From: Pseudomonadota bacterium
GTDB taxonomy: Bacteria > Desulfobacterota > Desulfobacteria > Desulfobacterales > RPRI01
DNA length: 64,000 nucleotides
Assembly: GCA_043825875.1 (NCBI GenBank)
Contig: JBDRRF010000049.1
Span: forward strand, 1 to 64,000
Direction: 5' to 3'
Made by a program: the position numbers. Positions 33,001 to 36,000 of this stretch are shown here, piece after piece. Each line of letters begins with the position of its first letter. Positions within the stretch are counted from its first letter, which is position 1.

Positions 33001-36000
33001 TTTCAGTACGAATTAAGCGAGTTGGAAAAAAATATTGAACAAAAAATAAATACCATAAAAAGACAGCTCTACGATCTGGAGCATAAACCCATTAAAACAA
33101 ATCCTTCGCAAAATTTACCTTTAAAATCTGAGAATTCGTATAGTAAACCAACTATAAAAAAAACAACTCCGGAATCCGGTAAAATCATCGAACAGGATCT
33201 ATAAATATTTTTCAACATGAATGAAAAATCTTTAATAAAAATTCTTTCAAGTGTTTCCAATGGTAAAACTTCTGTTGAAAATGCTTTAAAAGAGCTTGCC
33301 CATTTTAATCTGGAAGATATAGGATATGCCCATATAGACCATAACAGGTCGCTTCGCAAAGGGTTTCCGGAAGTAATATTCGGTGAGGGGAAAACTGCCA
33401 ATCAAATTACCGGCATTATGGAAAAAATGGCATTACAGGAAGAAAATATCTTGGTAACACGCATTACTCAAGATAAAGCTGACGCGGTACTTTCAAGATT
33501 TACCGAAGCTGTTTATCATGAAGATGCAAAAATGATTGTCTGGAAGAAACAAAATAAAATAGATAATAACGGACGCGGAAAAATACTTGTGATTTCTGCC
33601 GGAACATCAGATATTCCTGTTGCTAAAGAAGCGTATATTACTGCTCAAACAATGGGAAATGAAGTAGAGTCGGTTTTTGATGTAGGAGTTGCTGGCATTC
33701 ACAGGCTATTTGATCACAGCAAGATGATTCATGAAGCTTCTGTTTTGATCGTTGTTGCAGGAATGGAGGGAGCGCTTCCCAGTGTTGTTGCCGGACTGGT
33801 AAGCCGCCCCGTAATAGCCGTTCCAACAAGTGTGGGCTATGGGGTCAGTATGGGTGGTCTTACAGCACTTTTTGCCATGCTTAACAGCTGTAGCTCAAAT
33901 ATAGCTGTAGTAAATATAGACAATGGTTTTGGAGCAGGTTATATGGCTTCAATTATTAACAGGAATTAGGTGCCACAAATGAGATTTTGCTAAAATTAAT
34001 CGGACAAATTAGCTTGTAATAACTTTAATGCCAAAGCAGTTTTTATATCAACAATACTCTGAAGCCACTGTGTGCCCAAATCGCTTTCTTCATCTGTTAA
34101 ATTTTTTATTACCAATAGATATTCTTTCCCATATTTCTTAATTGCAGAATCTACTATATTAAGAAAACTGTTTTTAATATTAATCATGTCAGAAGAAATA
34201 TCTTCTTCAGTTGTAAAACATCTTTTTATTTCAGGCCATATCAGGCTGGTTTCTTTTTTATTATCAGTCTTGTCGATTAATTCTTTTAATCTTTTTATTC
34301 TTTCTAAGATAGCAAGGTTCAATTTTTCTTTAAGGCCTGTTAAAAGTGTTTCCGGAAAATCTGAAGAAACGAATTGTGATCTTACATTATTATACCATGA
34401 CATAAGCGCTGTAAGATTTGCAATGTAAAATATATTATTAGATACTATTCTTGGGATATTGCCGCTTATGCCCGGGTAAAAAGGTATGTTATTATTTTTC
34501 CCTGATCCGCCAATTATGAAACGACCAGAGCGAAGTTCATCTTTTCTGCAAATTGTGCCGGCAGCGATTATCGTTCCGTAACTCAGCCTGCATGGCCCTA
34601 CAATGCCCCCCTGCCCTCCTAAAAAAATCGGTCTTTGTTTCAGCATCACCCCTTTTGGCACATCTCCGATCAGAGAGGGTGTGGCTTTATCCTGATTAGG
34701 AGTATAGTTAAAATGGATATAAGAACTTCCTACTTCGCTATGATCTTTGCGACTTGTGCCTCCGGACATAAAGCAGTCACAAAAATTAATAAGACTGCCA
34801 AGAGTCACATATGGGAAAAGTATCGTGTGCTTTAAGCCTACCGTATGGGCAATACTTGCTTCTTCTTCTATGATAGTTCCTTCTCTTACATGGGAACCGT
34901 AACCTAAAACAGATCCTTTTAGAAAAACGGAATCTTTAAAAAAACCGCCTTTTAGATTAACACCAGAAGCAACTTGGCAACTTTCCAATGTAACAGGGCC
35001 TTCATATCCGATTTTTACACCATCAAGAATTAGTGTCGAAGAGCCATATATTTTGCATCCCGGATATATTATTACATCATTTCCGGAAATCCTGTCTATT
35101 TCAACCTCATCACCTATAGATACATTATAAGGATCGGGGAAAACGACTCCTTTGTTTATCAGCTGCTCGATTTTTTTTGCTATGCTTCTATTCATTATTT
35201 TTAGTATTTAATTTATATTTGAAGGAATATATTCCGGTACAATTATTTTTAGAGTTTTTTTAATATTTTCATAATCCTGTTCTTCTGAAAGCCTGGATAA
35301 TTTTTCTATATTTCCATTTAGCATATTAATATTACAATCTACTCCTTTTAATGCCATTATTTTTTTGTGGCTTGTCGGAATTACGTTTTCACCCTCTGTA
35401 ATAAGTTCTTCATAGAGTTTTTCTCCAGGCCTTAAACCTACATATTCAATTTTAATATCTTCATCCGGCACAAAGCCTGAAAGTTTTATAAGATCTCTTG
35501 CCATATTGTCTATTTTAATCGGAGTTCCCATATCAAGCAAAAAAATCTCACCTCCATTTCCCATTGCGCCTGCCTGAAGAATCAGCTGACATGCTTCAGG
35601 AATAGTCATAAAATACCTTGTCACATCCTGATGTGTAACCGTAACCGGCCCGCCCCTTTCAATTTGTTTTTTAAACAATGGGATCACACTGCCCACACTT
35701 CCAATAACATTGCCAAAACGTACAGTTATAAACTGAGTTGGAAAGAGCTTGTCCCCGTTTTGGCTTTGTATGAGCATTTCAGCAACGCGTTTTGAAGCGC
35801 CCATAACATTTGACGGACGTACTGCTTTATCTGTTGAGACAAAGACAAAACGTTGTACATGATGCTTCCTTGAAACATCAATCAGATTAAACGTTCCCTG
35901 AACATTGTTTTCGATTGCTTTCCATGGCTGCAATTCCAGCATTGGTACATGTTTATAAGCTGCAGCATGAAAAACTACTTCAGGGTGATATTTTACAAAC

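What a model noticed while it worked through the whole genome (the two positions that open the first line are those of the whole stretch)
33996..35195. Split GlmU: an unannotated stand-alone 399-aa beta-helix protein is the missing glucosamine-1-phosphate acetyltransferas [...]
The only GlmU (C38:4909-5658, 249 aa) stops after the uridyltransferase domain. An orphan gene (g01469, no Pfam, NCBIfam or Swiss-Prot row) encodes a divergent GlmU-type left-handed beta-helix domain plus a ~170-aa helical tail. It is the likely free-standing GlcN-1-P acetyltransferase of Desulfobacterales.
Evidence so far: No full GlmU (TIGR01173 over cut-off) in 0 of 61 order genomes; 44 of 61 have a ~250-aa N-half only. 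g01469 residues 6-219 match TIGR01173 positions 238-427 (E 1.7e-13), and the top 9 NCBIfam hits are all GlmU models; hhalign to the E. coli GlmU C-half gives prob 94%, E 1e-7; best PDB hit is GlmU. Orthologs in 48 of 61 order genomes. In a 51-genome phylum sample it is in 9 genomes, all lacking full GlmU, and in 0 of the 29 with GlmU over the cut-off. glmM lies directly beside it in 18 of 29 loci.
(Added by a program. Inside this text positions count along the whole contig: contig position 1 is position 1 of the stretch shown here. "Call 12" and the like, gene names such as g00115 and contig names such as C1 are that model's own, and its searches are not shown. The text may have been shortened before it was handed on; [...] marks where a part breaks off. 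The agent that wrote the report below was given it as the finding of a first reader that could run no searches.)

Follow-up and report, generated by a model that had tools for sequence, protein, structure and literature searches.

The report
Histidine-less stand-alone GlmU acetyltransferase half
This gene most likely encodes the enzyme step for a cell-wall building block that these sulfate-reducer-type bacteria lost from their shortened GlmU protein, in a much-altered and untested form that lacks the usual catalytic histidine and carries an extra helical domain.

Summary
Confirmed. 33996-35195(-) encodes a 399-aa protein (X): a GlmU-type left-handed beta-helix plus a ~150-aa helical domain (model pLDDT 95.7; best fold and profile matches are GlmU). 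The genome's only GlmU stops after the uridylyltransferase domain. New support: glmM directly follows X in 62 of 80 and 71 of 80 related loci. X occurs fused to the GlmU N-half or to mutases. Of 151 phylum genomes, 64 lack full GlmU; 63 of these carry exactly one of three stand-alone candidates (X 22, archaeal-type 36, canonical C-half 5). Corrections: homologues are already auto-named 'protein GlmU', and exclusivity is not absolute (2 of 87 full-GlmU genomes carry X). His363 is Ser in 106 of 106 members, but the recalled phosphate-binding Arg, Lys and Asn are invariant. Best reading: a trimeric GlcN-1-P N-acetyltransferase with a rebuilt active site (0.85); never assayed. Split GlmU as a concept is in print; ten literature searches found no description of this family. 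The scan noted this family before on other genomes. New variant of a known kind.

The parts
33996..35195 (-). Gene X, 399 aa: stand-alone divergent GlmU-type acyltransferase (candidate GlcN-1-P N-acetyltransferase)
34482..35186 (-). Residues 4-238: end of the GlmU linker helix plus left-handed beta-helix, with family-specific loop insertions near residues 146-151 and 178-188
   Evidence: VIA-align Z 22.6 (rmsd 4.5, 209 aligned) to S. pneumoniae GlmU 239-447; hhalign prob 99.7, E 1.8e-26, 200 columns
34686..34892 (-). Residues 102-170: predicted inter-subunit active site (H102, R104, H117, G120, K122, S134, N137, H152, E154, S157, H161, N163, K170)
   Evidence: conservation in 106 members and mapping to E. 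coli numbering; contacts in the predicted trimer
34014..34457 (-). Residues 247-394: all-helical C-terminal domain in place of the GlmU C-terminal tail; R272 and R299 invariant
   Evidence: secondary structure and pLDDT mostly 87-98; conservation; residues 263, 267, 271 touch the next subunit
25304..26653 (-). glmM, phosphoglucosamine mutase; direct downstream neighbour of X in most relatives
   Evidence: TIGR01455 565.5 bits, cut-off 447.55; adjacency
26845..33969 (.). Seven-gene block (two CNNM/CBS genes, efp-like, trpF-like, guaA, a 302-aa unknown, larB) separating X from glmM in this genome
   Evidence: these genes are within 5 kb of X in at most 2 of 80 relatives; efp and trpF labels are recalled
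21481..25245 (.). Bax1-I/yccA-like, xseA, ispA: remainder of the conserved order X-glmM-yccA(opposite)-xseA-ispA
   Evidence: Pfam; found downstream of X in 47, 32 and 20 of 80 loci
35208..37106 (-). CapD/PglF-like UDP-sugar 4,6-dehydratase, 12 nt upstream of X
   Evidence: PF02719, TIGR03589 below cut-off; upstream of X in 21 of 80 loci

Best explanation
X is the free-standing glucosamine-1-phosphate N-acetyltransferase of the de novo UDP-GlcNAc pathway. A 1267-aa GlmS-like enzyme makes GlcN-6-P. GlmM moves the phosphate to C1. X, as a homotrimer, transfers acetyl from acetyl-CoA to the C2 amine at a site between subunits. The 249-aa GlmU N-half then adds UMP. X descends from the C-half of bacterial GlmU, became linked to glmM, and let the resident GlmU C-terminus erode. 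It keeps the basic and amide residues that hold the sugar phosphate, but the His363/Glu349 pair is Ser134/Gly120. Catalysis most likely needs no dedicated base (positioning of a neutral amine), or uses a neighbouring histidine (H117 first; H102, H152 or H161 otherwise) with E154. The helical domain probably completes the CoA site in place of the lost GlmU tail. Shown here: anatomy, ancestry, gene context, fusions, distribution and residue conservation. Predicted: the trimer. Inferred: activity, substrate, acyl donor, catalytic residue and the role of the helical domain.
For: Ancestry: the top 9 NCBIfam hits are GlmU. All listed Foldseek rows down to rank 34 are GlmU, before LpxD, LpxA and QdtC. 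VIA Z is 22.6 and 22.4 for GlmU against 18.8 for QdtC and 18.4 for LpxD. hhalign gives E 1.8e-26 to bacterial GlmU and 1.9e-7 to the archaeal-type family. Context: glmM lies within 400 nt on the same strand in 62 of 80 genome loci. It follows X in 71 of 80 metagenome loci, and the 9 others hold under 200 nt downstream. It follows X in 16 of 19 loci outside the order, and giant GlmS adjoins in 2 more. Fusions: GlmU N-domain+X in two clusters (P0164, P0276), X+GlmM over cut-off (P0274), X+divergent mutase (P0277-9). Distribution in 151 phylum genomes: 87 have full GlmU. Of the other 64, X is in 22, the archaeal-type protein in 36, a canonical C-half in 5, none in 1, with no overlaps (12.4 X/archaeal overlaps expected if independent; kin are not independent). 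Within genus g81, G086 and G154 have intact GlmU and no X, while G122 and G213 have X and a GlmU ending near 360 with R333G and N346P. Residues: R104 (R333), K122 (K351), N163 (N386), K170 (one column from K392), E154, S134 and S157 are each in 106 of 106 members. Trimer model: score 0.93, best control 0.00; runs agree in at least 71% of contacts; partner pLDDT at least 83; this mark was reached by 20 of 30 solved pairs and 1 of 23 single chains; likeness to solved beta-helix trimers can cause the pass. The 7 other short hexapeptide proteins scanned or listed match polysaccharide, Vat-like or NeuD-type models better than GlmU (6 scanned), and the archaeal-type family was not found in this genome.
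Against: His363 is Ser in 106 of 106, Glu349 is Gly in 98 of 106, Tyr366 is Asn in 105 of 106, Asn377 is Glu, and the GlmU tail (R440, W449) is absent; these positions are invariant or nearly so in canonical GlmU. X co-occurs with full GlmU in G200 (eroded: K351T, K360R, Y387F) and G201 (intact; 6% contamination), and with the archaeal-type protein in G028. G005, G076, G063 and G056 (98-100% complete) have X but no match to the GlmU N-half, so the two halves are not an obligate pair. One cluster is fused to galactokinase (P0275). Ten GNAT-domain proteins in this genome were listed but not examined. No assay exists.
Confidence: 0.85

Rival explanations
1. X is an acyltransferase of the same pathway but with another acceptor or donor. 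It may acetylate GlcN-6-P, so that the adjacent GlmM acts as a GlcNAc-phosphate mutase (eukaryote-like order), or use an acyl carrier protein docked on the helical domain, as LpxA and LpxD do.
For: The pocket positions 360, 363, 366 and 377 are all changed. X precedes glmM in gene order and in the fusions. The helical domain has invariant R272 and R299. LpxD and LpxA are the next fold neighbours.
Against: The Arg, Lys and Asn that hold the 1-phosphate in GlmU (roles recalled) keep their places. The adjacent GlmM scores as an ordinary GlmM. X swaps one-for-one with canonical and archaeal-type C-halves. The late beta-helix turns where CoA binds (recalled) are conserved, for example A212 in 105 of 106.
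Confidence: 0.08
2. X is a catalytically dead GlmU derivative that binds a sugar phosphate and regulates or scaffolds GlmM; acetylation is done by an unrecognised GNAT.
For: His and Glu of the catalytic pair are lost in nearly all members. The link to glmM is tighter than the link to the GlmU N-half. YvcK-like and RapZ regulators recur in some loci. Ten GNAT matches in this genome were not examined.
Against: A regulator should not be mutually exclusive with three other acetyltransferase types, nor replace the lost half of GlmU in cis (P0164, P0276). A full set of invariant polar residues lines the predicted site.
Confidence: 0.05
3. X is an NDP-amino-sugar N-acetyltransferase for surface polysaccharide (QdtC/WlbB type) working with the upstream dehydratase.
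For: The dehydratase gene is 12 nt upstream here and upstream in 21 of 80 loci. QdtC is the third VIA match (Z 18.8) and its alignment extends into the helical domain.
Against: glmM adjacency is far more constant. X has one strong match per genome across the order. GlmU is the better match by every method, including the linker helix.
Confidence: 0.02

Closest known systems
C-terminal acetyltransferase domain of bifunctional GlmU (E. coli b3730; TIGR01173; PDB 2oi6, 4aa7, 1hm0)
   Same: Linker-helix end plus left-handed beta-helix in register over 200 columns; R333, K351 and N386 equivalents invariant; predicted parallel trimer; same inferred pathway step.
   Different: Free-standing; about 24% identity; H363S, E349G, Y366N, N377E; two loop insertions; a ~150-aa helical domain in place of the tail; linked to glmM rather than the glmU locus.
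Separately encoded or truncated GlmU halves described in bioRxiv 10.64898/2026.06.23.733835 (PVC bacteria, Wujia chipingensis) and the monofunctional GlmU of Capnocytophaga (PMC4358021)
   Same: GlmU activities on separate genes; the preprint infers an 'unidentified acetyltransferase' in N-half-only species.
   Different: Those C-halves were found by BLAST with S. aureus GlmU. The preprint's main text has no 'Desulfo', and the sections read mention no His-less or helical-domain form. Its figures and supplements were not visible.
Stand-alone archaeal-type GlmU C-half (related to ST0452 / TIGR03992), ~260 aa
   Same: Fills the same slot in other GlmU-truncated genomes of the phylum; has His at the position of X's H117.
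   Different: Keeps the catalytic-position His (AGHFAY motif) and Glu, has no helical tail, is only distantly related (hhalign E 1.9e-7), and co-occurs with X in 0 of 151 phylum and 1 of 81 order genomes.
QdtC, WlbB, FdtD, AntD (beta-helix NDP-amino-sugar N-acyltransferases)
   Same: Beta-helix with C-terminal helical parts (Z 16-19); recalled, not confirmed here, to work without a catalytic histidine.
   Different: Act on nucleotide-linked sugars in polysaccharide clusters; lack the GlmU linker helix and N-terminal coils.

Membership tests
Bifunctional GlmU (TIGR01173) | Uridylyltransferase and acetyltransferase domains in one chain; score over 366.85 bits | tested here: not met
   50.3 bits, positions 238-427 only; the N-half is a separate gene on contig C38
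GlmU C-terminal acetyltransferase domain | Left-handed beta-helix preceded by the GlmU linker helix | tested here: met
GlmU C-terminal acetyltransferase domain | Homotrimer with the site between subunits (PMC10087520) | tested here: inconclusive
   Model supports it (0.93 against best control 0.00; mark reached by 20 of 30 pairs and 1 of 23 single chains), but likeness to solved trimers can cause the pass
GlmU C-terminal acetyltransferase domain | Phosphate-holding R333, K351, N386, K392 (roles recalled) | tested here: met
   R104, K122 and N163 in 106 of 106; K170 in 106 of 106, one column from K392 in a loop
GlmU C-terminal acetyltransferase domain | Catalytic His363 with Glu349 (roles recalled) | tested here: not met
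   Ser in 106 of 106; Gly in 98 of 106
GlmU C-terminal acetyltransferase domain | Tyr366 and Asn377 at the GlcN-1-P site (named in a docking passage of PMC3146400) | tested here: not met
   Asn in 105 of 106 and Glu in 106 of 106
GlmU C-terminal acetyltransferase domain | C-terminal tail with R440/W449 (role in CoA binding recalled) | tested here: not met
   R440 aligns to G230; the chain continues into a helical domain
GlmU C-terminal acetyltransferase domain | Acetyl-CoA-dependent acetylation of GlcN-1-P (EC 2.3.1.157) | not testable with these tools
   needs an assay or complementation
Archaeal-type GlmU acetyltransferase (TIGR03992) | Profile match to positions ~242-393 with the catalytic-position His kept | tested here: not met
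   13.3 bits; hhalign E 1.9e-7 over 107 columns
DUF4954/DUF6819 | Pfam match | tested here: not met
   0 of 106 members match at E<=0.1; only a language-model look-alike at 0.82-0.88

The most novel reading that the evidence does not exclude
X is a mechanistically distinct hexosamine-phosphate acyltransferase. It has lost the His/Glu pair and gained a helical domain because it uses another acceptor or donor (GlcN-6-P, or an acyl carrier), so that hundreds of species run a re-ordered UDP-GlcNAc pathway built from a double-length GlmS, X, GlmM and a half GlmU.
Probability: 0.1. Interest if true: 0.8.

Novelty: new variant of a known kind. Interest (0 to 1): 0.55.

Why it matters
UDP-GlcNAc feeds peptidoglycan and lipid A, so a GlmU that stops at residue 249 leaves a hole in an essential pathway. 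X names a specific candidate for that hole across most sampled genomes of this order (close relatives are Desulfobacterales) and in scattered other lineages: at least 581 genome stretches in one capped scan. A recent preprint leaves the acetyltransferase of N-half-only bacteria unidentified. If X is active, it is a natural GlmU acetyltransferase that works without the textbook histidine, and its automatic names ('protein GlmU', 'UDP-GlcNAc pyrophosphorylase') are misleading because it has no nucleotidyltransferase domain. One complementation and one coupled assay would settle it.

Tried and rejected
Assembly artefact or broken glmU: rejected. The N-half ends near position 240 in 58 of 81 order genomes, and here it is followed by zapB/zapA/rny-like genes (labels recalled). 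Another beta-helix protein as the missing enzyme: the 159-aa C40 protein scores like X on TIGR01173 but sits in a polysaccharide cluster and matches NeuD-type models best; five others match WbbJ, NeuD or Vat-like models; LpxA, LpxD and CysE-like proteins were labelled from recall only. DUF4954/DUF6819 link from the Atlas: not supported by Pfam scans, and the family was found in 0 of 151 phylum genomes. Fold of the helical domain: the single-sequence model was poor (pLDDT 53.5) and Foldseek gave no match at E<=0.001, so this is untested. Plasmid search found nothing. The promoter/terminator scan gave nothing specific. More distant X homologues in genomes lacking both: the profile found none in 27 of 36 genomes; the archaeal-type family explained most. 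Literature: ten searches found no description of this family; the library lacks most subscription papers. Three look-ups for the primary GlmU mechanism papers failed, so residue roles are recalled. PMC9271549 passages discuss histidine-based Class I enzymes only and did not confirm my recall about base-free QdtC/WlbB. Twenty cluster look-ups gave almost no taxonomy for distant members. No RNA reads were examined.

Full report
OBSERVATION. The window has a 399-aa ORF (X) at 33996-35195 on the minus strand. It has no Pfam hit at E<=0.001. Its nine best NCBIfam hits are GlmU models, with residues 6-219 matching TIGR01173 positions 238-427 at E 1.7e-13, far below the cut-off. The window's genome is 99.8% complete and has no full GlmU. 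Its best TIGR01173 match is a 249-aa protein on contig C38 covering positions 3-248, 37% identical to E. coli GlmU 2-240 with the nucleotidyltransferase motifs visibly kept. 'Unannotated' needs a qualifier: close homologues already carry the automatic names 'protein GlmU' (NCBI, for example Desulfonema magnum), 'UDP-N-acetylglucosamine pyrophosphorylase' (UniRef) or the bifunctional name (JGI).

ANATOMY. With a 106-row alignment AlphaFold2 gives pLDDT 95.7 and pTM 0.94: a helix at 7-15, a beta-helix to about 230, and helices from 247 to 394. All listed Foldseek rows down to rank 34 are GlmU, followed by LpxD, LpxA and QdtC. VIA-align against 48,161 chains ranks GlmU first (Z 22.6, rmsd 4.5, 209 aligned; Z 22.4), then QdtC 18.8 and LpxD 18.4. 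Profile comparison with ten full GlmU sequences gives probability 99.7, E 1.8e-26, over 200 columns starting in the linker helix; against the archaeal-type family it gives E 1.9e-7. X therefore descends from the bacterial GlmU C-half. The helical domain's fold is untested, because its separate model was poor. Three copies of residues 1-312 with CoA gave a trimer score of 0.93 against a best control of 0.00. Runs agreed in at least 71% of contacts and partner pLDDT was at least 83. That mark was reached by 20 of 30 solved pairs and 1 of 23 single chains, and likeness to solved trimers can cause the pass.

ACTIVE SITE. In 106 members R104, K122, S134, E154, S157, N163, K170, R272 and R299 are invariant. 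H117 is in 100, H152 in 101, H161 in 99 and H102 in 76. They map to E. coli R333, K351, H363, N377, A380 and N386, with K170 one column from K392. Glu349 is Gly (98 of 106) and Tyr366 is Asn (105 of 106). The roles of these E. coli residues are recalled: the primary papers were not held, and I saw only a docking passage naming Asn377 and Tyr366 (PMC3146400, passages). In the trimer model H117 and S134 touch H102 and G120 of the next subunit, and S134 also touches N137. The phosphate-holding set is thus kept while the His/Glu pair is gone. H117 lies one rung from the lost histidine and is kept even in the most distant fusions. It is also His in the archaeal-type family, which keeps its own catalytic-position His, so its role as a replacement base is a guess.

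GENE CONTEXT. In 80 genome loci (the best 80 of at least 581), glmM lies within 400 nt on the same strand in 62, in the order X-glmM-yccA-xseA-ispA. In this window the same order resumes after a seven-gene, 7.1-kb block, which explains why glmM is eight genes away. Among 19 loci from outside the order, glmM follows X in 16 and a giant GlmS-like gene adjoins in two more. In 80 metagenome loci chosen with a more distant query (the best 80 of at least 447), glmM follows in 71; the other nine hold under 200 nt downstream. NagB-like, YvcK-like and RapZ genes recur there. A dehydratase gene is upstream in 21 of 80 genome loci. The loci are related and not independent.

FUSIONS. A search of longer proteins returned six. 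P0276 and P0164 join a GlmU N-domain with its first beta-helix coils (to about 330) to a whole X. P0274 joins X to a GlmM over the cut-off; its cluster also holds separate 450-aa GlmM proteins, so it may be a recent read-through. P0277-9 join a divergent X to a divergent mutase. P0275 joins a galactokinase to X. All partners make or use sugar 1-phosphates (established family knowledge); the galactokinase fusion does not fit the de novo pathway neatly.

DISTRIBUTION. In 81 order genomes, X has a strong match in 66 and contig-end fragments in 3 more. Full GlmU is in one, G070, which lacks X. An archaeal-type stand-alone protein is in G061 and G072 (no X) and in G028 (with X). Nine have none of these; of five checked, three have no glmM over the cut-off and two have glmM cut at a contig edge on the side where X would lie. 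In 151 phylum genomes, 87 have full-length GlmU (89 over the cut-off, minus two truncated near 355) and 24 have X. Of the 64 without full GlmU, 22 have X, 36 the archaeal-type protein, 5 a canonical stand-alone C-half and 1 none, with no overlap. Two genomes have both X and full GlmU: in G200 the GlmU C-half shows K351T, K360R and Y387F; in G201 (6% contamination) it is intact. Within genus g81, two genomes have intact GlmU without X and two have X with a GlmU eroded to about 360 residues. Family f88 has one X genome and four archaeal-type genomes. Against a strict pair: G005, G076, G063 and G056 have X but no GlmU N-half match, and G005 and G076 also have no PF01704 match.

MECHANISM. The genome has one GlmS-like gene of 1267 aa and none over the cut-off, glmM in the window, X, and the N-half. 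The simplest reading is that X acetylates GlcN-1-P with acetyl-CoA as a trimer, either base-free or with a relocated histidine, while its helical domain completes the CoA site (0.85). Rivals are a different acceptor or donor in the same pathway (0.08), a dead regulatory partner of GlmM with an unrecognised GNAT doing the chemistry (0.05; ten GNAT matches were not examined), and a polysaccharide acetyltransferase (0.02).

WHAT IS KNOWN. The GlmU domains work apart and the acetyltransferase needs the trimer (PMC10087520, passages and the first part of section 4). A GlmU cut at 331 has only uridylyltransferase activity, and monofunctional N-half GlmU is common in Bacteroidetes (PMC4358021, passages). 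A 2026 preprint reports N-only, C-only and separately encoded halves and infers an unidentified acetyltransferase (10.64898/2026.06.23.733835; abstract, passages, last results section and discussion). Its figures and supplements were not visible and might include these taxa. PMC9271549 and PMC6736417 were seen as passages. Ten searches of the held library found no description of this family. Earlier notes of this scan reached the same reading on other genomes; they are not independent support.

VERDICT. X works like the GlmU acetyltransferase domain but fails several defining residue tests, so it is a derived family rather than a member. Split GlmU is a known idea. The histidine-less site, the extra domain, the glmM link and the four-way complementarity are what is new. 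New variant of a known kind; interest 0.55.

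Noticed in passing
G094:C11:2961-3758 (L248:2462-3259) and 37 other phylum genomes: A ~260-aa stand-alone archaeal-type GlmU C-half that keeps the catalytic-position His occurs in 36 of the 37 phylum genomes lacking full GlmU, X and a canonical C-half.
   Followed up: yes
G087, G123, G155, G185, G214 (family f81; L207, L191): A canonical GlmU C-half stands alone (239-272 aa, key residues intact in the two aligned; next to glmS in G087); no N-half match was listed at E<=1e-24.
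   Followed up: partly
G000:C96:53446-57246 (L186:3447-7247): The only GlmS-like gene of this genome is 1267 aa, below the TIGR01135 cut-off; relatives of it adjoin X in some loci.
   Followed up: partly
G005, G076 (L190): Genomes rated 100% complete with X beside glmM (seen in G005) but no match to the GlmU N-half or PF01704; their GlcNAc-1-P uridylyltransferase is unidentified.
   Followed up: partly
G015, G042, G035, G060, G034, G067, G064, G006, G077, G007, G041: Eleven order genomes have a divergent nucleotidyltransferase (95-112 bits on TIGR01173 positions ~2-245) as best match instead of the usual N-half.
   Followed up: no
G213, G122, G081, G091 (L201, L202, L204, L205): An erosion series of GlmU: proteins matching to about 360, 330 and 240, with decayed motifs in the longest forms.
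   Followed up: partly
window 33999-34475 (X residues 240-399): The Atlas feature search returns DUF4954/DUF6819 proteins of Bacteroidota and Spirochaetota (0.82-0.88). They might be a distant analogue in N-half-only Bacteroidota; not supported by Pfam scans.
   Followed up: partly
G000:C68:28904-30289 (L177): A 462-aa PF01704 (eukaryote-type UDP-sugar pyrophosphorylase) protein with no NCBIfam hit at E<=1e-10; whether it is UGPase- or NagU-like was not tested.
   Followed up: no
P0275 cluster: X fused behind a galactokinase (TIGR00131 over cut-off) in a 14-member cluster, mostly full-length 838-840 aa; could point to an amino-sugar salvage use.
   Followed up: no
window 33217-33969 and 32296-33204: larB (NF033503 over cut-off) converges on X with a 26-nt gap; the 302-aa gene before it has no Pfam hit.
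   Followed up: no
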